In this document: piece by piece, positions 17,153 through 63,975 of the stretch | How the letters are laid out: each line of letters starts with the position of its first letter | How positions within the stretch are numbered: the first letter of the stretch is position 1 | Source: a virus | Taxonomy: Duplodnaviria; Caudoviricetes | Length of the DNA stretch: 64,000 nt | Direction: 5' to 3' (one strand) | IMG/VR virus record: IMGVR_UViG_3300025534_000006 | Location: 21,781 to 85,780 of that record | The notes under the pieces: model-generated | Databases searched by the model: none | Seen by the model: only the letters and a program-made list of their open reading frames with translations | Told to the model about the DNA's origin: nothing | Position numbers and translations under genes: made by a program

Positions 17153-17158
17153 TATTTA
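17153..17158 (-). promoter_or_regulatory. TAAATA late promoter
   Basis: 26 nt upstream of start 17126. Confidence 0.7.
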
Positions 17159-17292
17159 GCGAACGGATATGGACGGAGTTTAAGCGCCCCTTCCAATGCC
17201 GATGCGGCCTCCATGATCGGCGGGATCACGGAGGCCGCATGGTGCGCATGGTCTCAAAGGATTGGCCGGAAGCCCCGGCCAGTCCCGTCAGG

Positions 17293-19752: not shown

Positions 19753-19831
19753 ATGCCCTCTGAAATGGCTTCAAGTTTTGGAAACAGATTTATGAAGATT
19801 GGTCAGGCCACAGGACGCATCGTCAGATGCG

Positions 19832-20026
19832 CTATGCAATAACTGCATCCCATGTGAACGGGCAAAGAACCAACCCAATAGGCTCCCCGGTCTGATCGGG
19901 GTAATCGCGCCGCATTGCCTCGACGATCTCCGCCGGGGGCGCGGTGCGGGCCACCCCGTCCGCGTACAATGCTTCCCACATTTTGCGATAGCGATTGGCA
20001 GCCGGGATAGTGTGGTAATTGGTCAT
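19832..20026 (-). CDS. Small hypothetical protein
   Basis: 64-aa ORF filling an intergenic gap. Confidence 0.35.
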   Translation of the reverse strand: MTNYHTIPAANRYRKMWEALYADGVARTAPPAEIVEAMRRDYPDQTGEPIGLVLCPFTWDAVIA

Positions 20027-20066
20027 AATGACTCAAATATCCGTTCTGTTACAAATTCGCGGCGGA

Positions 20067-20519
20067 TCAGTCGCCGATGCCGGTGTATCCACGGCCCGAC
20101 CACTGCCATTCGCGGAGCACGACATTCGCGGTCGGGGGATAGGGTACGACTACGCCGTAATGGTAGTTCAATGCCCACACCGTGTCAATGCGGAGAACCA
20201 GACCGGATTCCTGCGCCGCCCGGTCGATGAACACCCGAAGCGTCATCCGTTTCGGGTCCCAGCCGGACAGACGGAGGGTCTCGGCCATCCCGATGGCGAC
20301 CGACTGGCGGCACCACTGCCCGGCATGGATCATCTCCCAGATCGTCGGCCACGTGTCCGGCGCCTCGGAATCGTAGGCGAGCTTTACCAGCGGAGCCTTG
20401 GCCCAATACGCGGCCACCGCGTCCAGTTGCTCGGCCTCCGTCATGTCCGGCAGGGCGCGGCGGAACGCCTTCCAGTCGTTCAGCCTCTCGGCTGGCGACA
20501 GGAGAAAGGGATTGATCAT
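20067..20519 (-). CDS. Conserved phage hypothetical protein (PTIWEMI motif)
   Basis: In series with the upstream structural gene. Confidence 0.7.
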   Translation of the reverse strand: MINPFLLSPAERLNDWKAFRRALPDMTEAEQLDAVAAYWAKAPLVKLAYDSEAPDTWPTIWEMIHAGQWCRQSVAIGMAETLRLSGWDPKRMTLRVFIDRAAQESGLVLRIDTVWALNYHYGVVVPYPPTANVVLREWQWSGRGYTGIGD

Positions 20520-20542
20520 GGCATGGCTCCCGCGATGAGCCG

Positions 20543-21661
20543 TCAGGCGGTCACGGTGGTCTGCAACTCGGTGCGGGCGACGGTCACGGAGACCGGCCCA
20601 ATGGTGGCGGTCGCTCGCAGCGTGACGGTTCCGCTGACGGCGCTGACCGAGAAGGTCGCGAGTTCGTTGCCGCCGGTCGTGAGGAAACCGTACTCGGTCA
20701 GGTGCGCATTGGTCCCGTCGGTCACGAGCAGCAATTCGCTGACCTGCGTCCCGTGCTGCCCACCATAGACGGTGATAACGTACTTGGCGGACGCACTGAT
20801 CAGGTTATTGTCGCCAAAGGAGTCGATCACCGTGTCGGCGCCGCTGACAAACAGCGTGTTGGTGACAGCCCCGTTGTCGGTGTCGTTCTCGGGTGCCCGC
20901 GCGGGCGCACGAGCGTAGTTCAGAGGCGTGTAGGCGACATTGTTCGGGCTGGCACGCTCGACGCGGAAGCACATGATGGGATTGATCGGCAGCAGGTTGC
21001 GATACTGGATGACGACGGTCTGGGCACCGCCATCGGCCACGACACGGGCACGGAAGGCAATGTCGCCATATGCCGATGTCGCGTCGGTGGGATCATCCGC
21101 ATTGCCGAGGTCCACGCGCCGCAGCATCGTGGCCTCGTCGGTCAGCAGCGGGGTGCTCGCCCCGCCGGGATGCAGCACGGTAAGGCGGCCGGTGCGGATC
21201 GGCGTATTGCCATCGAACAGGAAATACGTGACCTGTGCGCTGGTCAGCACGCCGACCAGCGCGATCTTGAAGGGCACCTCGCCGACGCCGTTCTCCTCGG
21301 CCAAGGTCAACGTGCGCCAGTCGGTGTCGTCATGGGGGTCGGTGTTGATGAGCGCATTCGTGGTCATGAAGGCCGTTTCCACGATGCGGTTGTAGCCGTC
21401 GAATGCCCGGCGCAGCAGCAGCGTCGAATTCTCGGTCAGGACCTCGATGTTCTGGTAGGGAAAGGTCGCGCGCTTGAAATTGGCGTCACCTTCCTGTGGA
21501 TCATGGCCGATGAACACCCGGCCGGTATCGGTCGTGAAGGCGATTTCGCCGATGTCGAGGCCGGGCGAGAACTCAAGCGGGCTGGTCGAGGTGGGCGCGC
21601 CGGGCAGATCGCGCTCTGGTCCGCGTCGAAGCTGAATCTTGCTGATGTGAATCTGCGCCAT
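20543..21661 (-). CDS. Virion structural protein
   Basis: ISKIQLRRG...LDIGEIAFTTDTGRVFIG N-terminus; TAAATA at 21693-21698. Confidence 0.75.
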   Translation of the reverse strand: MAQIHISKIQLRRGPERDLPGAPTSTSPLEFSPGLDIGEIAFTTDTGRVFIGHDPQEGDANFKRATFPYQNIEVLTENSTLLLRRAFDGYNRIVETAFMTTNALINTDPHDDTDWRTLTLAEENGVGEVPFKIALVGVLTSAQVTYFLFDGNTPIRTGRLTVLHPGGASTPLLTDEATMLRRVDLGNADDPTDATSAYGDIAFRARVVADGGAQTVVIQYRNLLPINPIMCFRVERASPNNVAYTPLNYARAPARAPENDTDNGAVTNTLFVSGADTVIDSFGDNNLISASAKYVITVYGGQHGTQVSELLLVTDGTNAHLTEYGFLTTGGNELATFSVSAVSGTVTLRATATIGPVSVTVARTELQTTVTA

Positions 21662-21695
21662 GACCGGCTTACCACTCTCTTGGATTGCTGCGTAT

Positions 21696-22379
21696 TTATG
21701 CCGCCATTTTCTGGTGGAAGCTGACGACGCGGTCATGCCACTGCCCGCAGTAGTCGTCGAACTCGACGCCTTCGATCACGTACTGCACGAACTCGCAGTC
21801 GCGGGACACCATGAAGATGACACCGGTCTGGATGTTGGTATCGAACAGCAGGTTGTGCGCCAGCGCGTAGGCCGCGAGTTGGCAGAAGTAATTCGGGATG
21901 TCCGCCTTCTTCTTGATCTTCTTCGCCGTCTTGAAATCCATGATCGCGGGCTTGCCCTTATAGACGCCCACCAAGTCGGTGGTGCCCGCATAGAGTTCGG
22001 GGAAATGCAGTGCCACCTCGACACCCCAGACCTCGTCCACATCGCACAGGCCGCGTGCGATGATGGTATCCGCCATGCGCTGCGCCATCTGGCGGACGAG
22101 ATTGTTGCCCCTCGGCCGGTCGATGCCCATGATGTGCTTTTCGAGATGTTCATGCATCAGCGAGCCGAGCCCGGTGGCCTCGTCGCGCGCATCCTGCGCC
22201 TTTTTCGCGCCTACGCGGGCCTCCCATTCAAGGAGCTTGGTCTTGTCCTCCGTGGCGGAGAGGATGGTGGTGACGGAGGTGAGATGGGCGCCTGTATCGG
22301 GGCAGACGTAATAGCGGGTGCCATCGTCGAGCGTCACTCGCTCGATCTCGCGGTATGGGTACAGTCTTTTCAACAGCAT
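21696..22379 (-). CDS. PD-(D/E)xK Cas4-like exonuclease
   Basis: SVTTIL, G..MH, E, GTTD, DFKT, QLAAY. Confidence 0.85.
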   Translation of the reverse strand: MLLKRLYPYREIERVTLDDGTRYYVCPDTGAHLTSVTTILSATEDKTKLLEWEARVGAKKAQDARDEATGLGSLMHEHLEKHIMGIDRPRGNNLVRQMAQRMADTIIARGLCDVDEVWGVEVALHFPELYAGTTDLVGVYKGKPAIMDFKTAKKIKKKADIPNYFCQLAAYALAHNLLFDTNIQTGVIFMVSRDCEFVQYVIEGVEFDDYCGQWHDRVVSFHQKMAA

Positions 22380-22518: not shown

Positions 22519-23301
22519 TCAGGATCGAAGGGCCTTGATCAGCCAGTCGTAGAAATCCTTGACCGTGTTGATGCCGTCCCGGCCCTTGATGATGATGGAG
22601 GCCGGGTCGAACACGAAATAGGTGTGGCCGTCCATGGTTCCGGCGGCTCGCCGGGTGGCGGTATCCTCTTTGAAGCGCACGCCCGTGTAGCCGCGCGCCT
22701 TGAGAGCATCGACGAATTCCGGGCGGTCCAGCAGCCACCACCAGCGATGGATGGGAATGCGAGTGTATTTCTGGCCGTCACGGGCAAGCAGGTCGAGACC
22801 GAGGCGGACGATATCACGCGGTGGGCTGGCGGCGTCGAGGATATGAGTGGCGTCCACGTAACAGGTCAGGAGTCGGTAGTTGGCGCTGCCATCTGCACGG
22901 TTCGCGCCGAAGTAGTGCGCCAACGGCTTCGAATCGGTGAGAAAGATGCCCTGATTGTCCACGCTGTAGGTCGCGCCCAAGAAGCCGAGGCTGCGCTGTC
23001 CCTTGGTCAGTCGGAAGCCGTCCTTCTGGATGAGGTCGGCGACCTCGTGCGGGGTTCCGTGGTAGAGTTCGATGTAGCCGGGGCCGGGCCGGTGGGAGGC
23101 CGCGATAACGGCCTGCATCACGTCGTTCAGGTCTTTGACCTGATCACGCGGGACCTTCTTGATGGACGCCATGAAGGCGTCGAAAGAGGAGAGGTCCATG
23201 CCCCGCGTCAGGGCGTGAAGATCGGCACCGGGCGGTACCGGGATGGTCGAGCCAGACAACGCCCGCTCGACCAACGCGATGTAATACGCAAGGTGCCGCA
23301 T
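22519..23301 (-). CDS. ADP-ribosyltransferase-fold protein with leader
   Basis: Start MRHLAYYIALVE; LYHGT, GIFLTD, YF, GYTGV, YFVFDP. Confidence 0.7.
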   Translation of the reverse strand: MRHLAYYIALVERALSGSTIPVPPGADLHALTRGMDLSSFDAFMASIKKVPRDQVKDLNDVMQAVIAASHRPGPGYIELYHGTPHEVADLIQKDGFRLTKGQRSLGFLGATYSVDNQGIFLTDSKPLAHYFGANRADGSANYRLLTCYVDATHILDAASPPRDIVRLGLDLLARDGQKYTRIPIHRWWWLLDRPEFVDALKARGYTGVRFKEDTATRRAAGTMDGHTYFVFDPASIIIKGRDGINTVKDFYDWLIKALRS

Positions 23302-23302
23302 A

Positions 23303-23896
23303 TCAGGCCGGGCGCTGAGTTCCGGGCGCGAAATCGAGGCGCAGGATGTTAATGGGCGACCCGGCCACGTGTGTGATCTCGCGCTCCTCCTCCCACCAGA
23401 ACATAGCACGGGCGAGAGAGGTGGTCCAATCCACATTCTCATTACGAACCTGAGCGTAGAGAATGTGGCCGCCGCGATGGGCGGTGTGTGGGTTGGGCTC
23501 GGCGCCATAGGACCAATGCACCCCGAGTGGTCTCGCTAGGTCGGCCGTTTTCGTGAGCCGCCGGGTGATCGGAATCACGTCTAATTTGGACGCCTCTGCA
23601 AGTGCGCGCCGGGCATAGGTGATCAGTGGCCCAAGATACTCCGCGACCATGGCAACCTGATGGTCCGTAAGCTCCTCGAAGGTCTGGGGCAGTTGCGGAT
23701 CAAGCGGCTCGCCATGTTCGTCCTCGCCCCAGTCGATTTGGTCCCAATGGCCTTCCAGCACGTCGCGTAGGTCATCGACCTCCACATAGGCGCGCACCAC
23801 GTCCTCGACAGTGACTAGGTCGAGAGATTTGTGTGCCATTGTGCGGCGGGTGACCGCTTCGACTAGATCAATCAGACTCCGGAGGTCGTGCGTCAC
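23303..23896 (-). CDS. Leader-tagged protein, probable ART-like fold
   Basis: MTHDLRSLIDLVEA; ITR...LGVHWS...EEEREI. Confidence 0.55.
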   Translation of the reverse strand: MTHDLRSLIDLVEAVTRRTMAHKSLDLVTVEDVVRAYVEVDDLRDVLEGHWDQIDWGEDEHGEPLDPQLPQTFEELTDHQVAMVAEYLGPLITYARRALAEASKLDVIPITRRLTKTADLARPLGVHWSYGAEPNPHTAHRGGHILYAQVRNENVDWTTSLARAMFWWEEEREITHVAGSPINILRLDFAPGTQRPA

Positions 23897-24283: not shown

Positions 24284-25486
24284 TTACTCCTTCGCCTCGG
24301 GGGCCTTGCCCCATACCATCGAGGCCACGAGCTTCTTCGAGGCGATCACCCCGTCGATCTTCTTCTTGGTCTCTTTGGCTCCTTTGACGTTCCCAGCCTT
24401 GCGCTGCGCCTGATAGTCCTTCACCCAGCCTGCAAGGCCGTTCTCCAACTCCGCCTTGGTCCGAGCCTCGGCATCGTTGCTTTCGGCCACGGGCTGCGGC
24501 GCCTTCTGGGGCGTCCCACGACCGACCGGACCCTTGGGGGCCGGAGCCTGCTCCGGCGCCGCCTGCACACCCTTCTGACCTTGCTGGGAGGGCTGTCCGG
24601 CGGGCTTCGGGGGAGCCGGAGGGGTGGCGGGCTTCGCACCGGCCTGCGGCTGCTTCCGGCCCTGCGGTGCAGCCTTCTGCGCCTGCTGGGTAGCCCGCTC
24701 GGCCTCCGCACGGGCACGCATATCGGCCGGGCTGAGCGGCTTCTGAGGCTGAGCCTCCGTTACCTTCTTGCGGCACGCCTTTTTCGCCTCGCGCACGATG
24801 CTCACCACATCGGCGGCGTCGATGGCATAGGCGGTGGCGGTATGGCGGAGCGCCTTGGCAGCATCGCGGGTCTCGGCCAGCGCCTTACGGAACGTACCCA
24901 GCACCAGCGCGTCCGGGTTCTTGGACTCGCGCAGCGCCTTGATGTTGCGCTCGATCAGGCGCTTGCCACGGGGCAGGGCGCTCTCCTTCCGTGCGCGACC
25001 GGCCGCGTTCTGCGCCGCGCCCAGTACGTCATCCTCGGCGTTGCCAGCCATATCCGGCTCGGGCAGTTCGACATCGCCATCACCGGGCGGCGCCGGAAGC
25101 TCGTTGCCCTCCGCATCCGCATCGGCCTCTGGCGCGGGAGGCTCGGCGTCCATCGCATCGCCGTCCATCGCCATGTCGGAGGTGGCGCCGCCATTCACGG
25201 CCCGCTCAAGGCGCGCGATCTCGTTGCCAATGGCATCCTTGGCACCCTGAATGGCCTGCACGAGTTCGTCGATTTTCGTGGAGGTGACCTGCGAGAAGCT
25301 GTTGGCGGCGGAGGGGCCGAATGCGTCCTTGAGGTGGTCCTGCATCGGCATGATGTCGTCGGCCTTCACCTTGGCGAGGTCCTCGGCCATATCCTGAAGT
25401 TTGTCGGCAATCGCCTTGGCATTCAGTACGAGTTCGGACCGCTCAAGCGTGGACTCGATCAGTCGAGCCATGCGATTTTTGGTCAT
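24284..25486 (-). CDS. Prohead core/scaffold-like protein
   Basis: Coiled coil plus acidic/Pro-rich segments; many x-x-E|S/A sites (LIES, LRES, VREA, VTEA, VAES). Confidence 0.55.
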   Translation of the reverse strand: MTKNRMARLIESTLERSELVLNAKAIADKLQDMAEDLAKVKADDIMPMQDHLKDAFGPSAANSFSQVTSTKIDELVQAIQGAKDAIGNEIARLERAVNGGATSDMAMDGDAMDAEPPAPEADADAEGNELPAPPGDGDVELPEPDMAGNAEDDVLGAAQNAAGRARKESALPRGKRLIERNIKALRESKNPDALVLGTFRKALAETRDAAKALRHTATAYAIDAADVVSIVREAKKACRKKVTEAQPQKPLSPADMRARAEAERATQQAQKAAPQGRKQPQAGAKPATPPAPPKPAGQPSQQGQKGVQAAPEQAPAPKGPVGRGTPQKAPQPVAESNDAEARTKAELENGLAGWVKDYQAQRKAGNVKGAKETKKKIDGVIASKKLVASMVWGKAPEAKE

Positions 25487-35752: not shown

Positions 35753-35770
35753 TATTTAGCCGCTTAAATA
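35753..35770. promoter_or_regulatory. Back-to-back divergent TAAATA late promoters
   Basis: TATTTA 35753-35758 and TAAATA 35765-35770 between divergent genes. Confidence 0.7.
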
Positions 35771-42411: not shown

Positions 42412-44427
42412 TCAACCCCGGTAGCGGATTTTCCGCACGACGTAGGGGTATCCCGCCTCGTCGTAATATGCCTTGCGCTTCGACAGGTGCCGCTTGCTGA
42501 ACTTCAGCGTCGAGGTCAGGTCGTAGACCATGGCGCTGTCCTTGTCGTTCGCCTTGCGCAGCACGCGTCCGATGGACTGGATCGTCCGCACGAAGCTCTT
42601 GCCGCATTCGAGGAACAGGAGATTGAAGATGCGCGGCGCGTTGATGCCGACAGCGGCAACACCGAAGGTCGCGATGATGACCTTGTTGTTGACGACGGCG
42701 ACCTCCTTGAACTCGGTCTTACGGTCCTTGGTTTTCATCCGCCCGCTGATGAACACCGAGCCGGGGATCATCTGTTCGAGCATCTCGCCCGTGTCGATGC
42801 GGTCCACGAGGATCAGGGTGTTGCCCGTCTCGGCGGCCAGCTTCGCGGTGAAGTCGGCAATCCACTGGATGCGTGTCTTGTCGCGGACGAGGTAGTCATA
42901 CTCCTCCGCATAGTCGCGGAACTCGACGTGATCCTCCTCAAGCTGCAAGATTTCGATCTTGCATTTCGCAAGGACATTGCGTTCCTGCAAATCGGCCGCG
43001 CGAATCTCGCCGACCACCGGCCCCAGCGAGGCCAGCAGGCTCATGAACTCGTAGTCCTCCTTGGGGATCGTTCCGGTCAGCCCCCAGCGGATGGGGATGT
43101 GCGCCATTGGCCCGCAGAGGAGCTTGCGCAACTCGTCTCCCTTTACCGTGTGCGTTTCGTCGCACATCACGCAGACGACGCCATCGAGGAAATCCTCGAT
43201 GGTGATGCCGATGTCCTCGTCCTCCACGGCCGCTTTTTTCGACCCCTTCTTGAACTTGGCCCCCTCGGATTTCTTGCTGAACACCGACAAGGACTGCCAT
43301 GTCGCAATAGTATGGGTGTGCCCCCATTCCTTGCGGTCGCCGTAGAACACGCCCACGTCGAGACCGAGGTTCCGATAGTCCTCCTCGGTCTGCTCGACGA
43401 GATTCTTGGAGGGCACAATGACGATGGTGCGCCCACCCGTCGCCCGTTCAACGGTCAGCGACAGTGCTGCGGTCAGCAGCGTGTTGTGATGGATCAGCCC
43501 GGCCGCATCCCGATAAAGATGGGGGTAGTCGATGCCGATGTCGTAGAAGTCCTGTACGGCGCCATGCAATACCGATTTCACGACCAGAGGCCCGTTGACG
43601 GTGTCTACGGCCTCTCCGGGCCACAATGTCTCCGCAAATCGTTCGGCCCCGCCACAGAGAAGAATGTGCTTGTCTGCGCAGGTGAGCTTGTGGCCATTCT
43701 CGAAAGCAATGGTGACCGACGGGGCGCGCTTTTTGATGACGCCGTTGATCGTCGCCGAAATGCCATCAAGGTGCGTGGGGACCTTGATCCCGAGATCGCT
43801 TGCGACGATCTCCTCGCCAATCTCAAGCTGCCTGTTCCGGAATGCGGCAACCGCCTCCACCAACTGGCCCATTTTTAATGTCAGGCCAGTCGGATTGGTC
43901 CGAATTTCAGGCATACTTAGCAAAGAGCGCCCAAACGGCGTGTTTTCGTCGATCTCGATCTCGATCAGCGTGTCGTAATCGACGCACTTTCCCGCACCCG
44001 TGGAGATCGACTGTATGCTCTGAGGATTGGCGAGGTAGGTCTTGATCGCTTCGACCTGATAGTCGCGGAGGAAGATCGGCTCGCCCGCCATCGGATGGCC
44101 TTCCGGCCAGCAGCGGTCAGCAACAAGCTCATCCGTGACCTCCGGCCACTTGGGATGGAAATCCGGACGCTTGTCGTCGATGTCGATCTCGTATCCCGCC
44201 TCCATGATCAGAGGCAGGACCCGGTCGAGCAGATTGATATAGGTCGCGCCGCCGACAGTCCCGAAGCTCACCTTGCCGTCCCAGCGTCCGAGCTTGTAGG
44301 CAGGCATGTGCCTCGCGTGCGGAACCATGAACTTGAGAGCGTCGGCAAATTTGCGGCGAATGAAGGGGTCGAGATCAGTGAACTTGCAGTTCACCTGATC
44401 GCTGATAACCAGCGTGCAACGCGGCAT
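42412..44427 (-). CDS. uvsW: UvsW-like SF2 helicase containing an intein
   Basis: LRDYQ, STGAGK|T, DETH, GLTGT, QSIGR. Confidence 0.9.
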   Translation of the reverse strand: MPRCTLVISDQVNCKFTDLDPFIRRKFADALKFMVPHARHMPAYKLGRWDGKVSFGTVGGATYINLLDRVLPLIMEAGYEIDIDDKRPDFHPKWPEVTDELVADRCWPEGHPMAGEPIFLRDYQVEAIKTYLANPQSIQSISTGAGKCVDYDTLIEIEIDENTPFGRSLLSMPEIRTNPTGLTLKMGQLVEAVAAFRNRQLEIGEEIVASDLGIKVPTHLDGISATINGVIKKRAPSVTIAFENGHKLTCADKHILLCGGAERFAETLWPGEAVDTVNGPLVVKSVLHGAVQDFYDIGIDYPHLYRDAAGLIHHNTLLTAALSLTVERATGGRTIVIVPSKNLVEQTEEDYRNLGLDVGVFYGDRKEWGHTHTIATWQSLSVFSKKSEGAKFKKGSKKAAVEDEDIGITIEDFLDGVVCVMCDETHTVKGDELRKLLCGPMAHIPIRWGLTGTIPKEDYEFMSLLASLGPVVGEIRAADLQERNVLAKCKIEILQLEEDHVEFRDYAEEYDYLVRDKTRIQWIADFTAKLAAETGNTLILVDRIDTGEMLEQMIPGSVFISGRMKTKDRKTEFKEVAVVNNKVIIATFGVAAVGINAPRIFNLLFLECGKSFVRTIQSIGRVLRKANDKDSAMVYDLTSTLKFSKRHLSKRKAYYDEAGYPYVVRKIRYRG
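43483..43986 (-). mobile_element. Mini-intein (168 aa) in Walker A motif
   Basis: Begins C(VDYDT) after GAGK, TCADKH block B, ends HHN before Thr; no LAGLIDADG seen. Confidence 0.9.
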
Positions 44428-44527
44428 TCAAAATCGCTTCCTGAAATGCATCCGCCTGATGGCGGTCTGAAATTAGTTTTTCAAATGAGCACTCAGTTTA
44501 TCACACCGCGTGCCCTGTAGTCGATAT

Positions 44528-44893
44528 TCACGGGAGTGGGGGAAAGAGGTCCTTGAGGCAAGACGGAATCCCCGGTTTCTGCCATTCCTCGACCAGTATC
44601 AGCCTTGGCGCGAACATGCACACCATCAGGGAGAGGTCCGACGGTTCATACACATGCATCGAGACGACATCCCCGGCATACTTCACGCAGTGGCGTATCG
44701 ACATGTTCTCGCAGACCTGCCCTACCTCCTCGTAATCGGACCCACGGAACCATACGCAGAAGCGACCGTCCCAGAACTCATGGTCGAGGCGGGACACGTT
44801 GAAACGCAGGTTCCCCCGCACCCAAGTTTCAGCTTCAAACCATGCCATCAGTTTGTCTCGGGAGGGAGGGGAGGCAGCAGCGCCTTGAGGCAC
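44528..44893 (-). CDS. Hypothetical protein
   Basis: Ends VEE...PSCLKDLFPPLP. Confidence 0.55.
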   Translation of the reverse strand: MPQGAAASPPSRDKLMAWFEAETWVRGNLRFNVSRLDHEFWDGRFCVWFRGSDYEEVGQVCENMSIRHCVKYAGDVVSMHVYEPSDLSLMVCMFAPRLILVEEWQKPGIPSCLKDLFPPLP

Positions 44894-45003
44894 GAAGGCG
44901 CTTCCAGTGGGATGAGTTCCTCCACTGCGACCACGCTGTGACCGAGCATCATCACGACCATCTGCATGGCGGTGTCATGCCAGTGAACCCATTTCCGCAG
45001 CAT
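44848..45003 (-). CDS. Short paralogue of the C-terminus of 44528..44893
   Basis: VEE...PSCLKALLPPLP. Confidence 0.4.
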   Translation of the reverse strand: MLRKWVHWHDTAMQMVVMMLGHSVVAVEELIPLEAPSCLKALLPPLPPETN

Positions 45004-45796
45004 GATTCTGTGGCAGGAACACGTTGTAGAAGTGCGCAAGGTCGTTGCGCTTGGCGTTGCCCCATGTCGTTCGCGGCATCACCTCGCGCTCGATGTGCCG
45101 GTCGCCTAGCGTAAAATGACCGAGAGGCATCTCCGGATAAAGCACCGCCGCAAGCTCCCACCACGGGAGACTCGATGATTGCTCGACGTAAGGAACGGGT
45201 CTACCGAATTGATAGAGCCCCAGCGACATATCCAGCATGAAACGCCCCTGAGCAATGCTCTCAAGCGCCGCTTCATCGGCCAGAATCACGGTGCGGGGAA
45301 ACTCGCGGGCGATGGCAGTGAAAAGTTCGGTAGTCTCGAAGGTGATGGTCGTATCATGCCAGTCGAGCACCATCAGGCCGTCGCGTCGCCCTTCCTGCTC
45401 CTCCTCCCGGAATGCGGCCCGGTGAGAGAGCATGACGAACGCCGTTTTCGGGAGGCCGGACCCGGCGACGGCTTCCTTCCACCTCTTGGGGTCACGGGAG
45501 GCAATGATCACCTTCTCCACGCCCATCAGCCTCGCGGCATTCAGGATGGTGGTCTGGGTCGGTCCGCCCGGCGCTACCACGCCTGCCCGCAGCCCGGCGT
45601 CGAGGAGGAACTGGGTCAGGACGATCCGCTCCGGCGTCGCCGGGCAGAGGAAAGGGTCGAAAGCGTCGGCGGTGACGCGATCCCGCTCGGCGAGGGACCG
45701 GATGCGCGGATCGAGATCGAGGCTCGTCAGATCAGCGAAACGGACGAGCTTGCGGGCCACGGCCGGAGTGGCAGGCAGAAGGAAGTCCTGATTCAT
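44975..45796 (-). CDS. Hypothetical, possibly degenerate helicase-like ATPase domain
   Basis: Alternating beta/alpha pattern, no intact Walker A. Confidence 0.55.
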   Translation of the reverse strand: MNQDFLLPATPAVARKLVRFADLTSLDLDPRIRSLAERDRVTADAFDPFLCPATPERIVLTQFLLDAGLRAGVVAPGGPTQTTILNAARLMGVEKVIIASRDPKRWKEAVAGSGLPKTAFVMLSHRAAFREEEQEGRRDGLMVLDWHDTTITFETTELFTAIAREFPRTVILADEAALESIAQGRFMLDMSLGLYQFGRPVPYVEQSSSLPWWELAAVLYPEMPLGHFTLGDRHIEREVMPRTTWGNAKRNDLAHFYNVFLPQNHAAEMGSLA

Positions 45797-57640: not shown

Positions 57641-58201
57641 ATGAGTCTGCCAAAGCCAAAATCAGTGCGGATCATGAACCGGGCCGAGTATCGGGCGTGG
57701 GCCGAGAGGCAGCCGCGCGGCCGTTTCGAGCGGGTCGCTGGCGAGGTGGTTGCCATGGCCCCCGAGAGGGTGGCCCATGCGCGGGTCAAGGCACGGGTCT
57801 GGCAGGCCCTCGACCGGGCTCTGCGGGAGGCCAAGCTGCCCTGCGAGGCGCTGCCGGACGGGATCACCGTCGAGGTCGGCGAGGACACCGACTACGAACC
57901 GGATACCGTGGTCAACTGCGGCGAGCCGATCCCCGGCGATGCCGTGGCAGCCCCGAACCCCGTGATCGTGGTGGAGGTCCTGTCGCCGTCCACCCAGAGC
58001 ACGGACACCGGGGCCAAGCTGGCGGACTATTTCCGCCTGCCGTCGGTCAGCCATTACCTGATCCTGCGGGCCGACCGTCCGCAGGTCATCCACCACCAGC
58101 GCGGATCGAATGGCGCCATCGAAACGCGGATCATCACCGAGGGGGAGGTGGCGCTGCACCCGCCGGGGATCGCGTTCAGCCTCCGCGAGATTTACGGGTA
58201 G
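57641..58201 (+). CDS. Uma2-family (DUF820) PD-(D/E)xK nuclease-like protein
   Basis: E...GEVVAMAP...H, YEPD, VVEVLSPST, KL..Y. Confidence 0.9.
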   Translation: MSLPKPKSVRIMNRAEYRAWAERQPRGRFERVAGEVVAMAPERVAHARVKARVWQALDRALREAKLPCEALPDGITVEVGEDTDYEPDTVVNCGEPIPGDAVAAPNPVIVVEVLSPSTQSTDTGAKLADYFRLPSVSHYLILRADRPQVIHHQRGSNGAIETRIITEGEVALHPPGIAFSLREIYG

Positions 58202-58964: not shown

Positions 58965-61262
58965 TCAGGCCCACACGCTTCGGCATTCCGTCTCGTCGAT
59001 TTCAAACCGGACATCCGGATCGCCATCCATCCACCGTTTCCATGTTGTCTCGGAAGCAAGTACGATATGCCCGCACTCCACGACGGGGATCGTCTCGCGC
59101 CCGGCCCTCGCATACGCTGCCAACCGGTGTCCACCATCATAAAAGTGGCCATTGGCGATCAGGATCGGGTCAAAATCGAAGGCCGGGTTGCGTCGCAGCA
59201 TTTCGGCGTACCGCTCCACCGCCTTGTTGCTGTTCTCCCGTGCCATGGAATGGACGAGATCGGAAACGCGGGCACGTCCGACCAAGACCTCGGGCGGATG
59301 CACAAGCCCGCAAAGATTGGCCCATGCATCCTCTGCCGTATAGCCAGTCTCGATGAAGTAGGGGTGACGCTCGGCGAGGTTTTCGCAGATGTCGGTCTGC
59401 ACTTCCGTCGGCAGATCATCGAAGGGAATCCGACGGAAACCACCCTCGCCTTTCCCTTCTGTCACGGTACTTTCGCGTTCAGCATTCTCCTCGGTGTCCG
59501 GTTCACGGGTCACCGACCGGATAACGGACGGGTCCAGTACCGCGTAGGTGGTGGAAGGATCGCCATGCTCGAAATTGACGATGTTCCGGATCACCACGCC
59601 TTTGTCACCACGCTCACGAGCCCTTGCCAGAATACGCTGCATGATGTCCGGATCGTAGATCGGATCACCACCAGCCAGACGGGCATAGTTCACCGAGGGA
59701 AAGCCCGCGACATCCACTTGAACCTTATGGACATAGCCCCAATGCTCCGCATCCTCGCGGCTGTCGGTCAGAAAAATCGCATTTTCGGCGCCTCCGGGCA
59801 GGCGCAGCCCATTCGACAGATCAGCGAGGCTTCCGTGATACGCCGTAATCACGTTTCCGCGCCCGGTCCCTTCATGGAGATGGCGACCCGTCACTACCTC
59901 GGCGCTTTCCAGCGGCAACGGCTTCGTCATATGAACCAGCACTTCGTCCTGATGATGCCAGTCACCGAGCGCCCTGATTGCCGACCGCACCTCCCGGTTC
60001 CGCGACGCTTTCAGATCAGCCATACCGAATGGAATCCGTTCGGGATCGGGCTTCGTACTGACCAGCAGCGGTATGCCCGACCGGGCTGAATGCTCCGCAA
60101 AGTCCAAGGCAGCCTCCCGGCTCCCCGAGAACGACTGATACGGGTATTGCGAATTCGGCGGAAGCATCTTGCTGCGAATGATCTTCACCGCCGTTGATTT
60201 CGGCACGAAGATCACCCGGTAGAGGAGCGGCTTCGCTACGGCGCGATGGTTGCCGACGGCTTGCCCGATGATGGAGAACGCCTCCTCCACGGTCATGGCC
60301 TCGGTCTCCGGCCACGACCAGTCGGGATCGCGCATGGAACCGCTGATCCAGCGTTGCAGCCACCAGAGGGCATATTGCAGCTTCTTCGAGTCCACCGAGG
60401 TCGTCTTGTGCCCGGTGCTCTCGGCCATGCGGCTTCGCACCCGCCGCATGATCTCCCTCGCCCGCTTGCTTGGTTTGCGCGTCAGAAAGCCACGGGCGCG
60501 GCCATGTTCGTATGGCGGCACCTCGCCGACTGAGGTGTACTGACTTGCCGTTGGGTCGAGGATTGCACCGGTCGTCGTGTTCCGAAGCCACCAGTGGACC
60601 ACACCATTGCGGTCTCGGGCGCTGTACGGACGCCATGGGCTATCGAACCCACCGAGCATGTGCCAAAGGGCTTCGCTCGCCACATAGCAATGACCGTAGG
60701 TGGGATTGTCGGCGGACCACTTCTTCCGAAAAGCTGGCTGGAGCAGTTCCGGGCTCAGCGACGCCTTGACGGACGATACGAGATCGGGGGCGATATCCTG
60801 TCCGGCGTTTTCCGTGACGCCCCGGCGCTGTCTTGGATAACGGATCATGAGGCACTCCTCGGAATCCTCATCATCCAAATCGCCGTTGCCGTTCTGCAAA
60901 ATCTCGAAACCGAAGTCCTGATAGTAGGATATGAGCTTCGGCGAGTTAGCAAAGACAGTCAATTTGATCGTGACCCGGTACCGGTCAGCAAGATCGGCAA
61001 GGGCTTGCATGACCTGTGCTCCCGCCCCCGGCGGCGCGTCGGGACGGCGCTCGATATACGTCAAGTGGACTACTTTGGCGCCGTTCCCCACGGTGCCACC
61101 GGTTTCCAGTTCAATGTCAACATTCAGCCTGCGTGCGATTGGCTGGATGGCACGGATAACCTCTAGAGCCGGTACCGCGCGTTTTGCAGGCTTCTGGGTT
61201 GCCGCCGTCTTGGGCGCAGAGCGGGTCTCGGCGAGATCGATCCAGAGGCGGAGAGAGGACAT
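58965..61262 (-). CDS. Five-domain polyvalent protein (GNAT, papain-like, two ART-like, ParB/Srx-like)
   Basis: Leader MSSLRLWIDLAE; GAGAQVM..YYQDFGF; HCYVAS/VHWW/LDPTASQY; LYR/SFS/QDE; YHGS/IFLTD; DGGHRL; TAAATA 61291-61296. Confidence 0.75.
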   Translation of the reverse strand: MSSLRLWIDLAETRSAPKTAATQKPAKRAVPALEVIRAIQPIARRLNVDIELETGGTVGNGAKVVHLTYIERRPDAPPGAGAQVMQALADLADRYRVTIKLTVFANSPKLISYYQDFGFEILQNGNGDLDDEDSEECLMIRYPRQRRGVTENAGQDIAPDLVSSVKASLSPELLQPAFRKKWSADNPTYGHCYVASEALWHMLGGFDSPWRPYSARDRNGVVHWWLRNTTTGAILDPTASQYTSVGEVPPYEHGRARGFLTRKPSKRAREIMRRVRSRMAESTGHKTTSVDSKKLQYALWWLQRWISGSMRDPDWSWPETEAMTVEEAFSIIGQAVGNHRAVAKPLLYRVIFVPKSTAVKIIRSKMLPPNSQYPYQSFSGSREAALDFAEHSARSGIPLLVSTKPDPERIPFGMADLKASRNREVRSAIRALGDWHHQDEVLVHMTKPLPLESAEVVTGRHLHEGTGRGNVITAYHGSLADLSNGLRLPGGAENAIFLTDSREDAEHWGYVHKVQVDVAGFPSVNYARLAGGDPIYDPDIMQRILARARERGDKGVVIRNIVNFEHGDPSTTYAVLDPSVIRSVTREPDTEENAERESTVTEGKGEGGFRRIPFDDLPTEVQTDICENLAERHPYFIETGYTAEDAWANLCGLVHPPEVLVGRARVSDLVHSMARENSNKAVERYAEMLRRNPAFDFDPILIANGHFYDGGHRLAAYARAGRETIPVVECGHIVLASETTWKRWMDGDPDVRFEIDETECRSVWA

Positions 61263-61444
61263 GGCGTGGCTGTTCCGAAGCTTGGCATCGTATTTATCGA
61301 TCTGCCCGGCAGTATCAGAGCCAAGCTTCGGGGGTGGTCAATCAACCACTCCCCTGCCGATGTTAATTCCTATCTCCCAGCGCGGTGCTGCGCAGCGGCG
61401 AGGCCGGATCGACCGGCCATCGCTGCTTGGAAGGTCTGGACGCT

Positions 61445-61882: not shown

Positions 61883-62464
61883 TTACGGCACGCCCCGGCC
61901 CTCTCGTTCATCAAAGTCACTATGACCCACCGCTTCGATGCGGCGCCAAGCAAGCGTGTCGAAATACCGCGACGTTTTGGCGAAGCGATGCTCGGGGGCC
62001 TCGCATGGCTCATATCCGGCCATCGCAAGCTCTTGGGAGAACTTCGCGGCCATTTTCTGATAGAGCCGGAAGCGGTTCGTGTTCTCCTTGCTGGCGGAGA
62101 GCATGATCAACTCCGGCTTGACCTTGGTGATGAATTCCCGGAACACGGCGATGGCGGTGGCGAAAACGCGATACCCCTTCCCTCCCAAGTTCAGGACCTT
62201 GGTGCCAGCGAAGTAGTCGCTGACGGGGCCGAAGCTGAGGTCATACCAATTGCCGTCGCGCTGGGGATCATCGGGATGCGGGAAGCCGGTCGAGAGGTCC
62301 GCCTTGGCGAAATACTCCTCGTCGCCAACCTTGAAGATCGCCTCCCAGAGGTCTTTCTTGCGGTGTATCCACCGGTATGGGAATGGCGTTTCGAAGCTTT
62401 CGGAAATGCCCGAGCGTTCGGCGCTCTCAATGATGTCGATGTAGTGGCGAAGGGTATGGGTCAT
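61883..62464 (-). CDS. Leader-tagged protein, possibly divergent GNAT-like
   Basis: MTHTLRHYIDIIES; VFATAIAVFREFI...RFRLYQKM. Confidence 0.6.
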   Translation of the reverse strand: MTHTLRHYIDIIESAERSGISESFETPFPYRWIHRKKDLWEAIFKVGDEEYFAKADLSTGFPHPDDPQRDGNWYDLSFGPVSDYFAGTKVLNLGGKGYRVFATAIAVFREFITKVKPELIMLSASKENTNRFRLYQKMAAKFSQELAMAGYEPCEAPEHRFAKTSRYFDTLAWRRIEAVGHSDFDEREGRGVP

Positions 62465-63210
62465 CTTTGGGTGTCAATGCTGAAATCTCGTCTCCCCCGA
62501 CGCAGCAGCGTGTTGTTCGGGTCTGGGTCCTCGTAGACCACCAAGGGCAAGCCGAGACGCTCGCAGGTCTCGCGCACAGCCTGAGCCTGCTGGTCATCTT
62601 CGGCCGGGTTCACCAGCAGGTAGACCTTGACCAGATAGGACCGCAAAGGCGTGATGGACCCGATGCAGAACTCCTCCGCCTCCATGCGGGTGTTGCGCTC
62701 GCCATGAGTGCGCCGCATGGGTTCGAAATCATCCGGATCGTAGTGCAGCACACGGGTTGGCTTGTTCGGCTTATGCGTTCCGTCCATGGAGAACGGCACG
62801 AGCTTGTAGCGCGCTGCCAAGGCTGCCTGATCCAATTCAAACACCACACGGCCCCATACAGTGGCAAGATTCCATGAGCGGGTCAGGGATACGCCTATCA
62901 CCGGCTTTCCGCCGATCATCTGCGGGCGCTTGGCGTTTGCGGCAATGCGGTCCTGCTTGATGATGCTGATGGCGCGGTCATATGTCGTGGCGTGATAGAG
63001 CGGAGCGTCCCTGCCCTCCATCAACGCCATGCATTCGCGCCCGGCTGTCATGGCACCCGACGCTTGGATTGCCTCCCGACGGGCTTCGCTCGTGCCGTGG
63101 TAGACGCGGCGCTCGGGTGCCACATATGGCGACCACGCTGGGCCTGCGCCGCGCCCCCAAGCCTCATTGAGGCGCTCAACAAGGTTGATCCATAGACGAA
63201 GGGAGGTCAT
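62461..63210 (-). CDS. Leader-tagged ART-fold protein
   Basis: MTSLRLWINLVE; VYHGT stub, then LYHAT/GVSLTRS/EAEE. Confidence 0.7.
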   Translation of the reverse strand: MTSLRLWINLVERLNEAWGRGAGPAWSPYVAPERRVYHGTSEARREAIQASGAMTAGRECMALMEGRDAPLYHATTYDRAISIIKQDRIAANAKRPQMIGGKPVIGVSLTRSWNLATVWGRVVFELDQAALAARYKLVPFSMDGTHKPNKPTRVLHYDPDDFEPMRRTHGERNTRMEAEEFCIGSITPLRSYLVKVYLLVNPAEDDQQAQAVRETCERLGLPLVVYEDPDPNNTLLRRGRRDFSIDTQR

Positions 63211-63941
63211 GCCAGCCCCTCCGTGATCTCCGGACTGTCGGGAGAGAACGTCCCTTTGTTGGCGATGGCCGACTTGATCTGGTGCGGATAGAACGCGATC
63301 CACCAGTCGGTAAGGCCGCCGCCGCGAGTACCAGCGTCGGCGAAGGTGTCCTTGAGCAGGATGCCATCATAGCCTTCGCTGATCGCCTGCTCGCGGAACT
63401 CCTCCACCATGGCTTCCCATTCGCGGCTCGATTGCTTCACCCGTCGCCCGCCGCTGATGGCGCGCAGCAATCGGTCGTAGGCATCGGCGCGGTCCATCTG
63501 CTCGACATGCCGGTTATAGGCGGACCAGTTCCGCGAGCTTGCATGGGCGTCAAGGGCCTTCTGATCCTCGATCCATACCGGTTCGCTGTTGAACACGAGG
63601 GGACGTTTGATCGAGAGATAGCATGGCATGACGTTGCCGCCGGGCGTGATGCGGTCATGCTCCGGGTCGGCATGGCCCATGTAGCCAGCGAAATAGGAGG
63701 GAGTTTTGGGGTTGGTGTCGAACCAGAAGCCAAGGCGGTTGGTGCCGTAGGCCCGCCGCCTTTCGCTGTCCAGTTTGAAATGTCCGAAGTTCTCTAACGT
63801 GCCATGGTAAACGACCAATGGCTTGCCGTGGGCGTCCACGACCTTGCTGCCGGAGAACCACCGCTTGAATTCCGGGGTCTCGGTGATGCTCGGAGCAGCA
63901 GCACGTTCAACGAGATTGATCCATTGGCGTAGGGTAGTCAC
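63207..63941 (-). CDS. Leader-tagged ART-fold protein (polyvalent-protein type)
   Basis: MTTLRQWINLVE; TPEFKRWF.GSKVVD..GKPLVVYHGT, GFWF, YDGI, QIKSA..N.GTFS. Confidence 0.8.
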   Translation of the reverse strand: MTTLRQWINLVERAAAPSITETPEFKRWFSGSKVVDAHGKPLVVYHGTLENFGHFKLDSERRRAYGTNRLGFWFDTNPKTPSYFAGYMGHADPEHDRITPGGNVMPCYLSIKRPLVFNSEPVWIEDQKALDAHASSRNWSAYNRHVEQMDRADAYDRLLRAISGGRRVKQSSREWEAMVEEFREQAISEGYDGILLKDTFADAGTRGGGLTDWWIAFYPHQIKSAIANKGTFSPDSPEITEGLA

Positions 63942-63969: not shown

Positions 63970-63975
63970 TATTTA
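63970..63975 (-). promoter_or_regulatory. TAAATA late promoter for the three-gene effector operon
   Basis: 28 nt upstream of GTG 63941. Confidence 0.65.

What the first reader, a model, noticed from the sequence alone, without database searches (positions are those of the whole stretch)
58965..61262. 765-aa polyprotein with five enzyme domains, each preceded by a hydrophobic-x-Glu site
Seen: LAE12|T, GNAT-like (~30-145), VTE151|N, papain-like C192/H223/D236, MAE281|S, R-S-E-type ART-like (R349, SFS377-379, QDE438-440), LHE464|G, H-type ART-like (YHGS475-478, IFLTD), VTE602|G, ParB/sulfiredoxin-like (DGGHR709-713). The sites fall at the domain boundaries. Known: T4 gp21 cuts after (I/L)-x-E. 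Inference: one gene is packaged through one leader and cut by the head protease into five separate effectors, i.e. virus-style polyprotein processing in a phage.
Basis: partly seen in the sequence, partly recalled or inferred. Interest (0 to 1): 0.88.

Follow-up and report, generated by a model that had tools for sequence, protein, structure and literature searches.

The report
Capsid-targeted five-module phage cargo protein
A roughly half-megabase soil phage encodes one 765-residue late protein that strings five host-modifying enzyme modules behind a T4-like capsid-targeting leader, with a possible head-protease cutting site in every joint; it is probably loaded into the capsid and perhaps cut into separate enzymes, but neither packaging nor cutting has been measured.

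Summary
The ORF is real. It lies on the minus strand at 58965-61262, is 765 aa long, and is identical in four independent assemblies.
- GNAT-like (weak evidence).
- YunG-type thiol enzyme with a Cys-His-Asp triad (strong: pLDDT 93, invariant triad, transglutaminase/papain-like fold hits).
- R-S-QxE ART-like (motif level).
- ART-PolyVal-like (lead only).
- ParB/sulfiredoxin-like (weak).

[LIVM]-x-E is no more frequent than chance overall (11 seen, 11.8 expected). However, one site lies in each of the four independently defined linkers (p about 0.001-0.003, for a motif chosen after the fact).

New support:
- The N-terminal MSSLRLWIDLAE belongs to a leader shared by at least 12 genes of this phage and by homologues elsewhere. 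It ends like the T4 capsid-targeting sequence.
- The gene has a T4-late-promoter-like GATAAATA 28 nt upstream.
- All five internal copies of module C in other proteins have [LI]-x-E just upstream.

Against:
- Only one of the four internal sites fits the strict T4 motif.
- MAE281 lies in a predicted helix.
- No head protease is present on this fragment.

The closest known concepts are polyvalent proteins and T4 CTS cargo, so I class it as a new variant of a known kind. This scan has noted similar "cargo polyproteins" on other phage DNA before.

The parts
58965..61262 (-). 765-aa ORF (P0001), stop codon included
   Evidence: identical protein on 4 contigs
61291..61298 (-). GATAAATA box 28 nt upstream of the ATG; resembles the T4 late promoter
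   Evidence: TAAATA occurs 19 times in the window against 2.5 expected. In the whole record, 19 of 30 copies lie within 60 nt (here 5-39 nt) upstream of a gene start, including tail-fibre and structural genes
61227..61262 (-). Leader, aa 1-12, MSSLRLWIDLAE; candidate capsid-targeting propeptide with a cut after E12
   Evidence: Shared by at least 12 genes of the record and by P0004, P0005, P0009, P0011 and P0091 from other samples
60825..61178 (-). Module A, aa ~29-146, GNAT-like acetyltransferase (lead only)
   Evidence: Atlas features 0.89 and TM about 0.6 to phage GNAT clusters. No Pfam hit. P0135 and P0003 carry Pfam GNAT ahead of a YunG module
60792..60824 (-). A/B linker, aa 147-157, with VTE151|N
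   Evidence: aa 150-154 have pLDDT below 50 in the module-B model. Stand-alone B proteins start at about aa 152-158
60417..60791 (-). Module B, aa 158-282, YunG family (PF24585); small transglutaminase/papain-like Cys192-His223-Asp236 enzyme
   Evidence: Scanned alone it scores 31.1 bits against a cut-off of 27. phrog_12251 E 2e-39. C, H, D and Q241 are invariant in 55 sequences. AF2 pLDDT 93. VIA hits: LapG Z 5.3, NATs, TGase, SseI, protein-glutaminase, PeiW
60420..60428 (-). MAE281|S site at the B/C joint
   Evidence: Lies in the C-terminal helix of B (aa 266-287). Aligns with the end of the leader of stand-alone C homologue P0004 (IIE|S)
59889..60401 (-). Module C, aa 288-458, R-S-QxE ADP-ribosyltransferase-like; family not in Pfam
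   Evidence: R349, Q376-S377-F378, Q438 and E440 are invariant in 16 sequences. The best hhalign stretch with T4 ModA/ModB puts the Arg strand in register with both and the Ser motif in register with ModB, but the scores are weak (E 0.009-0.024, probability 2-4%). No Pfam or PDB sequence hit
59859..59888 (-). C/D linker, aa 459-468, with LHE464|G
   Evidence: Stand-alone C homologues end 3-12 residues after the SAE(I/V) motif. This is the only internal site that fits the strict [LI]xE motif
59508..59858 (-). Module D, aa 469-585, ART-PolyVal-like (H476 in YHGS); lead only
   Evidence: Atlas features 0.92 with 170 shared; TM 0.68 to ART-PolyVal clusters and 0.65 to RES. No Pfam hit, no relatives, hhalign negative
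59439..59507 (-). D/E linker, aa 586-608, Glu-rich, with VTE602|G
   Evidence: E homologues start at aa 601-612
58995..59438 (-). Module E, aa 609-756, ParB/sulfiredoxin-like (DGGHR709-713); family not in Pfam
   Evidence: GGHR is invariant in 6 sequences. Profile hit to sulfiredoxin only at E 0.5. phrog_3256 E 2.5e-4. Fused with ART-PolyVal in P0053 and P0147
63207..63941 (-). Upstream gene, 244 aa: leader (V)TTLRQWINLVE plus ART-PolyVal
   Evidence: PF18760 E 2.4e-21; TAAATA 28 nt upstream
62461..63210 (-). Upstream gene, 249 aa: leader MTSLRLWINLVE followed by a VYHGT motif
61883..62464 (-). Upstream gene, 193 aa: leader MTHTLRHYIDIIE

Best explanation
The gene encodes a late-expressed cargo protein of a megaphage of about 0.5 Mb that is distantly T4-related. 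It is a 'polyvalent' effector with five modules: a GNAT-like acetyltransferase, a YunG-type Cys-His-Asp thiol enzyme, an R-S-QxE ART-like domain, an ART-PolyVal-like domain and a ParB/sulfiredoxin-like domain.

Proposed mechanism:
1. The first 12 residues form an amphipathic leader that acts like the T4 capsid-targeting sequence. It brings the protein into the assembling prohead.
2. A gp21-type (S77) prohead protease removes the leader after L-A-E12.
3. The same protease probably also cuts after Glu in some or all of the four inter-module linkers (VTE151, MAE281, LHE464, VTE602). One packaged precursor would then yield several separate enzymes.
4. These enzymes are ejected with the DNA and modify host proteins or nucleic acids at the start of the next infection.

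Shown here: the modular make-up, the shared leader, the promoter box and the position of the sites.

Inferred: packaging, cleavage, ejection and every enzyme activity.
For: Modules and boundaries:
- Boundaries come from homology alone.
- B, C and E each also occur as stand-alone genes whose ends lie within about 10 residues of the proposed sites.

Leader:
- M..LR.[WYL]I[DNR][LI][VIA]E is found on at least 12 genes of the 85.8-kb record. Seven of nine pattern hits lie in the first 25 residues, where 11% would be expected.
- The genes use different synonymous codons for the leader, so it is conserved at protein level.
- The same leader is found on P0004, P0005, P0009, P0011 and P0091 from other samples.
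- It ends like the T4 CTS MKTYQEFIAE, in which residues 8 and 10 govern processing (PMC8442874; PMC9026906).

Late expression:
- The TAAATA box is 8-fold over-represented.
- It lies 15-40 nt before tail-fibre and structural genes and 28 nt before this gene.
- The T4 late promoter consensus is TATAAATA (PMC1524935).
- The same box sits at the same spacing before the stand-alone C homologue P0004.

Protease:
- The nearest cultured relative by primase, the 469-kb Sinorhizobium phage Phosso, has a Peptidase_S77 gene.

Junctions:
- All four linkers hold [LIVM]xE, p 0.001-0.003.
- All 5 internal copies of module C in other proteins have strict [LI]xE 11-18 residues before the conserved WW helix. The background is 0.22 per 35-aa window. 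These stretches are not whole relic leaders, which suggests selection on the site itself.
Against: - There is no direct evidence of packaging or cutting.
- [LIVM]xE is not enriched across the protein as a whole, and the residue set was widened after the fact.
- The phage's own leaders use L or I at P3 and V, I or A at P2. Three of the four internal sites have V or M at P3 and T or A at P2.
- MAE281 lies in a predicted helix of module B.
- Internal copies of module B in other proteins show no enrichment of the motif upstream (11 of 43, against a background of 0.22).
- No S77 protease was found on the fragment.
- Phosso is only 34.5% identical in primase and lacks the leader family.
- Some polyvalent proteins, such as N4 vRNAP, ArdC and TraC1, are delivered uncut (PMC5512222).
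Confidence: 0.5

Rival explanations
1. The protein is packaged through the leader, and only the leader is removed. It is then delivered as one intact five-module polyvalent protein. On this reading the Glu motifs in the linkers reflect chance and the Glu-rich make-up of linkers.
For: - The overall motif count equals chance.
- Internal sites fit the phage's own leader consensus poorly.
- MAE281 is in a helix.
- The within-linker shuffle gives 0.37 and 0.48 for two of the linkers on their own.
- Precedents exist for uncut delivery of polyvalent proteins (PMC5512222).
- GNAT-YunG fusions recur without a site at the joint (P0135).
Against: - Four of four linkers hold a site, p about 0.001-0.003.
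- Five of five internal C modules in other architectures keep a strict [LI]xE at the same place.
Confidence: 0.28
2. The protein cuts itself. Module B, the papain/transglutaminase-like thiol enzyme, would cleave the precursor in the capsid or after injection. This would parallel the role proposed for the MPTase domain of other polyvalent proteins and for the papain-like proteases of RNA-virus polyproteins.
For: - The Cys-His-Asp triad is invariant.
- The fold resembles LapG, PeiW/PeiP and other cysteine peptidases.
- B sits at the very N-terminus of many giant proteins of 2,400-4,700 aa.
- No MPTase is present in this protein.
Against: - The same fold also serves deamidases, transglutaminases and N-acetyltransferases.
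- Most family members are stand-alone proteins of about 130 aa with nothing to process.
- Nothing links B to cleavage after Glu.
- The junction motif matches the leader ends, which points to the head protease instead.
Confidence: 0.07
3. The protein is not packaged. The shared N-terminal helix would have another role, such as binding a common partner or chaperone, localisation, or control of stability, and the protein would act inside the cell that makes it.
For: - There are no virion data.
- The gene sits among small hypothetical genes, not beside portal or capsid genes.
- No protease lies on the fragment.
- T4 ModA and ModB are ARTs that are not packaged (PMC5512222).
Against: - The leader ends exactly in the T4-type processing motif.
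- The late-type promoter box is shared with tail-fibre and structural genes.
- A 400-aa protein that matches a 'virion structural protein' family starts with a related MARLIE|S.
- Cargo of this kind (ART, GNAT, ParB) is what polyvalent and injected proteins typically carry (PMC5512222).
Confidence: 0.12

Closest known systems
Phage T4 internal proteins IPI-III and Alt: capsid-targeting sequence plus gp21 cleavage (Mullaney & Black 1996; PMC9026906, PMC8442874, PMC5694885)
   Same: - A short N-terminal amphipathic leader of 10-20 aa ends in (I/L)-x-E.
- The leader is shared by otherwise unrelated proteins of one phage.
- The genes are late genes.
- The cargo includes an ADP-ribosyltransferase.
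- T4 Alt is cut at both ends.
   Different: - Here the leader precedes a five-module fusion rather than one domain.
- Candidate sites lie between modules.
- The leader sequence itself is different (M..LR.WI.L.E).
- The host phage is an uncultured genome of about 0.5 Mb.
- The protease has not been seen in this fragment.
Polyvalent proteins of phages and conjugative elements (Iyer, Burroughs, Anand, de Souza, Aravind 2017, PMC5512222)
   Same: - Several unrelated conflict domains (ART, GNAT, ParB-like) lie in one polypeptide of a phage.
- Modules C and E are fused to ART-PolyVal in other proteins.
- That paper already proposed delivery with the DNA and processing into functional units.
   Different: - This protein has no MPTase or other recognised processing peptidase, so processing would be by the head protease at Glu sites.
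[quoted passage not shown]
- It contains a YunG-type thiol enzyme; a text search of the paper found none of the words transglutaminase, thiol, NlpC or papain.
- It is not next to portal or MuF genes.
Ejection and inner-body proteins of giant phages phiKZ, 201phi2-1 and SPN3US, cut by gp21-related proteases (PMC5694885, PMC10052503)
   Same: - Many head-internal proteins are cut after Glu at a short motif.
- Some are cut at several sites.
- Paralogues share N-termini.
   Different: - Those motifs are (S/A/G)-x-E and the propeptides often exceed 100 aa.
- Cleavage there mostly removes propeptides rather than separating enzyme domains.
T4 ModA/ModB R-S-E ADP-ribosyltransferases
   Same: Module C has Arg, Ser-Phe-Ser/Thr and Q/E-x-E in the same order and with similar spacing. 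The best local alignments put the Arg strand in register with both and the Ser motif in register with ModB.
   Different: The similarity is not significant (hhalign probability 2-4%). C has QxE rather than ExE and carries an N-terminal WW-helix.

Membership tests
Polyvalent proteins (PMC5512222) | Two or more unrelated effector domains in one polypeptide of a phage or conjugative element | tested here: met
   Five modules, three of which have independent stand-alone families. The record is a virus fragment with tail-fibre, replication and structural genes
Polyvalent proteins (PMC5512222) | Domains drawn from the polyvalent repertoire (ART-PolyVal, GNAT, ParB-like and others) | tested here: inconclusive
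   No Pfam ART-PolyVal, GNAT or ParB hit in this protein. D and A are Atlas leads. Homologues of C and E are fused to PF18760 in P0005, P0009, P0053 and P0147
Polyvalent proteins (PMC5512222) | Linked processing peptidase (MPTase); frequent but not obligatory | tested here: not met
   No peptidase family at E<=1 in Pfam. Only the YunG-type thiol module could act as a peptidase
T4-type CTS cargo proteins | N-terminal propeptide of 10-20 aa ending in (L/I)-x-E | tested here: met
   MSSLRLWIDLAE|T. T4 reference MKTYQEFIAE, with processing determinants at residues 8 and 10
T4-type CTS cargo proteins | The same leader on several unrelated proteins of one phage | tested here: met
   At least 12 genes
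T4-type CTS cargo proteins | Late expression | tested here: inconclusive
   A GATAAATA box lies 28 nt upstream and is shared with tail-fibre and structural genes. There are no transcript data and no gp55 search was made
T4-type CTS cargo proteins | The phage encodes a gp21-type (Peptidase_S77) prohead protease | tested here: inconclusive
   None in the 85.8-kb fragment, which is 17% complete. Present in the relative Phosso, E 1.3e-27. The 484-kb contig could not be searched
T4-type CTS cargo proteins | Found in virions with the leader removed | not testable with these tools
   Uncultured phage; no proteomics available
YunG (PF24585) | Score above Pfam's gathering cut-off | tested here: met
   31.1 bits against 27 for aa 150-290 alone; 26.1 bits within the whole protein; 38 of 55 relatives match
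Transglutaminase/papain-like thiol enzymes | Cys-His-Asp triad on the papain-like core fold | tested here: inconclusive
   The triad is invariant. Confident model (pLDDT 93). Nearly all top VIA rows are of this fold, but Z is at most 5.3. Foldseek found nothing at E<=0.001. Triad geometry was not measured
R-S-E ADP-ribosyltransferases (Alt/ModA/ModB type) | Arg (strand 1), Ser-x-Ser/Thr (strand 2) and Q/E-x-E (strand 5), in that order | tested here: met
   R349, S377-F-S379 and Q438-D-E440 are invariant in 16 sequences. The order is the same as in ModB: R73, SFTTS, EQE
R-S-E ADP-ribosyltransferases (Alt/ModA/ModB type) | Significant sequence or fold similarity to a known ART | tested here: inconclusive
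   hhalign E 0.009-0.024, probability 2-4%. No PDB or Pfam hit.
ART-PolyVal (PF18760), module D | Pfam match and an H-Y-D active site | tested here: inconclusive
   No Pfam hit. H476 is present in YHGS. The strand-2 position reads IFLT, with Phe where Tyr is expected. Atlas 0.92, TM 0.68. hhalign negative against a poor alignment
ParB/sulfiredoxin superfamily, module E | Conserved GxxR/DGxHR active-site loop and fold | tested here: inconclusive
   GGHR is invariant. Sulfiredoxin hit only at E 0.5. No Pfam hit. No model made
GNAT, module A | Pfam or fold match including the acetyl-CoA loop | tested here: inconclusive
   No Pfam hit. Atlas 0.89, TM 0.53-0.61 over aa 23-151. A PGAGAQ loop is seen in the sequence

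The most novel reading that the evidence does not exclude
In a clade of soil megaphages, the head-maturation protease serves as a polyprotein-processing enzyme. A single late gene is addressed to the prohead by a 12-residue leader and is then cut at Glu sites in every joint into five separate host-modifying enzymes. The modules would be exchangeable cassettes, since each also occurs alone with its own leader, which would give the phage a plug-in system for its injected arsenal.
Probability: 0.3. Interest if true: 0.8.

Novelty: new variant of a known kind. Interest (0 to 1): 0.58.

Why it matters
If it holds, tailed phages would use polyprotein processing, a strategy usually associated with RNA viruses, to load several enzymes into the capsid from one gene. 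A short leader plus a three-residue joint would be enough to add new cargo.

It also points to three module families that are uncharacterised or barely characterised and are probably injected host-takeover or anti-defence enzymes:
- the YunG-type thiol enzyme;
- an R-S-QxE ART-like family;
- a ParB/sulfiredoxin-like family.

The leader could become a tool for packaging foreign proteins, as the T4 CTS already is.

Tried and rejected
- **Full-length AF2 from a single sequence.** Mean pLDDT was 37, so the model is unusable.
- **Patched full-length alignment for AF2.** MAFFT laid the C and E homologues onto module B (A3). I therefore spent the last fold job on module B alone. Modules A, C, D and E have no model of mine.
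- **PDB sequence searches.** The whole protein and the profiles of C and E gave nothing below E 0.2.
- **Pfam on members of the C and E families.** Nothing found.
- **Relatives of module D.** None among shorter proteins or among the 150 fetched proteins. hhalign of D against the phage's own ART-like paralogues was negative.
- **IMG/VR scans with P0001 and with the C alignment.** No loci.
- **GenBank phages.** Only module B has relatives, in Caulobacter phiCbK-like phages and others. C and E have none.
- **Plasmids.** One hit, to module B only.
- **The 484-kb contig.** It is not held for whole-record search.
- **Search for this phage's own S77 protease through Phosso's protease.** The best 120 hits did not include a protein from the 484,642-bp contig.
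- **Phosso.** It has no P0001 or ART-PolyVal homologue and no leader family.
- **Dickeya phage JA11.** Its ART-PolyVal homologue lacks the leader.
- **Internal copies of module B in other proteins.** No upstream [LI]xE enrichment.
- **Complex prediction, sequencing runs and read laying.** Not used, because none of them can show cleavage.
Full report
**1. What is there**

The finding's coordinates hold a 765-codon ORF on the minus strand, window 58965-61262. Third-position GC is coding-like along its whole length.

The window is the last 64 kb of an 85,780-bp IMG/VR virus record that CheckV rates 17% complete. The identical protein is encoded on three other assemblies, one of them a 484,642-bp contig. 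The gene is therefore not an assembly artefact, and the phage probably has a genome of about 0.5 Mb.

The record carries tail-fibre and Ig-repeat structural genes, ribonucleotide reductase, a DnaB-like helicase, a primase and thymidylate synthase. By primase, the nearest cultured relatives are Sinorhizobium phage Phosso (469 kb, 34.5% identity) and PA5oct/Rak2-like jumbo phages. In PMC7824862, T4-like late-transcription factors are noted for jumbo-phage subgroup 2.2, which includes Atu_ph07; I take that to be the group in question, but that paper does not place Phosso, PA5oct or Rak2 by name.

**2. Modules**

A search of 1.84 billion representative proteins gave 1,703 hits, and they fall into three blocks:
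- aa 158-282, module B;
- aa 288-458, module C;
- aa 606-756, module E.

Each block also exists as stand-alone proteins of 125-190 aa and as part of other multidomain proteins. No other protein has the same five-module architecture. Modules A (1-155) and D (460-605) have no detectable sequence relatives.

*Module B.*
- Scanned alone, it passes Pfam's cut-off for YunG, PF24585 (31.1 bits against 27). It also matches phrog_12251.
- In 55 aligned members, G190, C192, H223, D236 and Q241 are invariant.
- An AlphaFold model built with that alignment has pLDDT 93.
- Foldseek found nothing significant.
- The Foldseek-independent search listed almost only transglutaminase/papain-like Cys-His-Asp enzymes: LapG (Z 5.3), arylamine N-acetyltransferases, a TGase, SseI, protein-glutaminase, PeiW/PeiP, SpvD and OspI. 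The Z scores are low.
- I read B as a minimal thiol enzyme of that fold. It could be a peptidase, deamidase, transglutaminase or acyltransferase.
- It sits at the N-terminus of many giant proteins of 2,400-4,700 aa. It follows a GNAT domain in P0135 and P0003.

*Module C.*
- R349, Q376-S377-F378, W435, Q438 and E440 are invariant in 16 sequences.
- The order and spacing match T4 ModB (R73, SFTTS, EQE). The best local alignments put the Arg strand in register with both ModA and ModB and the Ser motif in register with ModB. The scores are not significant, however (E 0.009-0.024, probability 2-4%).
- There is no Pfam, PDB or GenBank-phage hit.
- C follows an ART-PolyVal domain in P0005 and P0009.

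*Module D.* It is an ART-PolyVal-like lead only. The Atlas gives feature score 0.92 and TM 0.68 to ART-PolyVal clusters, and the sequence has a YHGS motif.

*Module E.* It has an invariant GGHR, a weak sulfiredoxin hit (E 0.5) and fusions with ART-PolyVal.

*Module A.* It is GNAT-like by Atlas only (0.89; TM about 0.6).

**3. The Glu sites**

[LIVM]-x-E occurs 11 times in the protein, and shuffles give 11.8. The motif as such is not enriched.

I defined the linkers without reference to the motif, from homologue ends and model or Atlas ranges: aa 146-157, 279-292, 457-468 and 586-608. Each holds exactly one site. The chance of four out of four is 0.0011-0.0028 under three null models.

Caveats:
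- The residue set was widened after the fact to include V and M.
- With T4's [LI]-x-E, only LHE464 of the four internal sites qualifies.
- Two linkers reach 0.37-0.48 on their own composition.
- In the module-B model, aa 150-154 (VTE|NA) are disordered, but MAE281 lies in the C-terminal helix, aa 266-287.

**4. New evidence: a shared leader**

The first 12 residues, MSSLRLWIDLAE, belong to a family of N-termini: M..LR.[WYL]-I-[DNR]-[LI]-[VIA]-E.

- The family occurs on at least 12 genes of the record. Three of them lie directly upstream: 244 aa (leader plus Pfam ART-PolyVal), 249 aa and 193 aa.
- Seven of nine hits to a stringent pattern lie in the first 25 residues of a gene, where 11% would be expected.
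- The genes encode the leader with different synonymous codons.
- Homologues from unrelated samples carry it too. P0005 has MSIRHYINLIE, P0009 MRDLINLVE, P0091 MRNWIRLVE, P0004 MRMREILGIIE and P0011 a related form.
- The leader ends as the T4 capsid-targeting sequence MKTYQEFIAE does. In that sequence residues 8 and 10 govern gp21 processing, and it suffices to package foreign proteins.

I found this leader before consulting the scan's notes. Two first-reader notes on this genome describe it as well.

**5. New evidence: late-type promoter**

- TAAATA occurs 19 times in the window against 2.5 +/- 1.5 expected.
- In the whole record, 19 of 30 copies lie within 60 nt (here 5-39 nt) upstream of a gene start.
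- Those genes include two tail-fibre genes, an 863-aa structural protein and a 263-aa 'virion structural protein'. The replication genes do not have the box.
- The target gene has GATAAATA 28 nt before its ATG.
- The gene for the stand-alone C homologue P0004 has GTAAATA at the same spacing, on a contig that also carries a T4_Y16D family gene.
- The T4 late promoter consensus is TATAAATA.

**6. New evidence: junction conservation in relatives**

- In all five proteins where module C is internal (P0005, P0007, P0008, P0009, P0046), a strict [LI]-x-E followed by S, N or D lies 11-18 residues before the conserved WW helix. The background is 0.22 per 35-residue window, so five of five has p of about 5e-4.
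- Stand-alone C proteins either start right at the domain or carry a leader that ends at the same aligned position.
- Four of the five internal stretches are not whole relic leaders, which suggests that the three-residue site itself is retained.
- MAE281|S in the target aligns with these sites.
- For module E, three of eight members have such a site (P0001, P0011, P0016).
- For module B in other, mostly unrelated, proteins there is no enrichment (11 of 43).
- Modules A and D have no comparators.

**7. Protease**

No Peptidase_S77 gene is on the fragment, and the 484-kb contig could not be searched. Phosso has one (E 1.3e-27), and thousands of close homologues exist on soil contigs of 0.3-0.57 Mb. 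A gp21-type protease in this phage is therefore a reasonable inference, but it is not shown.

**8. Reading**

The most likely reading (0.5) is a late, leader-addressed capsid cargo protein. Its leader is removed after E12, and at least some of its joints are cut by the prohead protease.

The main rival (0.28) is that only the leader is removed. Self-processing by module B (0.07) and a role outside the capsid (0.12) remain possible.

**9. Relation to what is known**

- The architecture fits the 'polyvalent protein' concept, including the earlier proposal that such proteins are processed into units (PMC5512222).
- The addressing and cutting logic is that of T4 IPs and Alt (PMC9026906).
- Multi-site cutting by head proteases is known in phiKZ and SPN3US (PMC5694885).
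- What is new is the combination. There is a CTS-like leader on a five-module polyvalent protein, candidate head-protease sites in place of an MPTase, and an R-S-E-like ART inside a polyvalent protein, which PMC5512222 says had not been seen.
- This scan has noted similar 'cargo polyproteins with protease-site junctions' in other T4-like jumbo phages. Those are unverified AI notes, and I did not use them as evidence.

I class the finding as a new variant of a known kind, with interest 0.58.

Noticed in passing
window 61883-63941 (-) and G000 16587-22286, 44299-45676 (= window 22519-23896): At least 12 genes start with the leader M..LR.[WYL]I[DNR][LI][VIA]E. Most are small ART-like proteins, and one copy (G000 21261-22286) is truncated to ..NLVES. 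A 400-aa 'virion structural protein' (window 24284-25486) starts with the related MTKNRMARLIE|S.
   Followed up: yes
window, 19 sites (e.g. 14618-14623, 17153-17158, 35753-35758, 61291-61296, 63970-63975): The TAAATA box is 8-fold over-represented and lies 15-40 nt upstream of tail-fibre, structural and leader-bearing genes. It is probably the late promoter of this phage and resembles T4's TATAAATA.
   Followed up: yes
window 60417-60791 (-) and proteins P0049, P0057, P0061, P0067, P0112, P0134: The YunG (PF24585) domain is predicted here to be a minimal transglutaminase/papain-like Cys-His-Asp enzyme. It opens many giant proteins of 2,400-4,700 aa and recurs directly after GNAT domains (P0135, P0003).
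   Followed up: partly
window 59889-60401 (-); alignment A1: Module C defines a family with no Pfam model and invariant R, QSF and QxE, which makes it a candidate new R-S-E-type ART. It is found only in metagenomic phages, often after an ART-PolyVal domain.
   Followed up: partly
window 58995-59438 (-); alignment A2: Module E defines a family with no Pfam model and an invariant DGGHR-type loop (ParB/sulfiredoxin-like). It is fused to ART-PolyVal and NUDIX in proteins of up to 2,831 aa.
   Followed up: partly
window 57641-58201 (+): A Uma2-family putative restriction endonuclease (PF05685, E 3e-28) lies on the opposite strand, two small genes downstream of the target.
   Followed up: no
L007 1422-1526: Just upstream of the P0005 gene lies a 34-codon ORF that consists of little more than a leader (MNLRHYMRLIEV...). 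It may be a relic of cassette exchange.
   Followed up: no
L011 95-2064 (Sinorhizobium phage Phosso): The S77 protease of Phosso starts MANFLTE, and the acidic, scaffold-like 410-aa protein before it starts MSEKLSKVLDLLIAE. Both therefore have L-x-E near the N-terminus, although Phosso lacks the leader family of this phage.
   Followed up: partly
L037 5452-9240 (Tunturiibacter phage Tunturi_5): A 1,262-aa protein annotated as a NUDIX hydrolase contains an ART-PolyVal domain and lies directly before the portal gene. This is a cultured example of a portal-linked polyvalent protein in a 309-kb soil phage.
   Followed up: no
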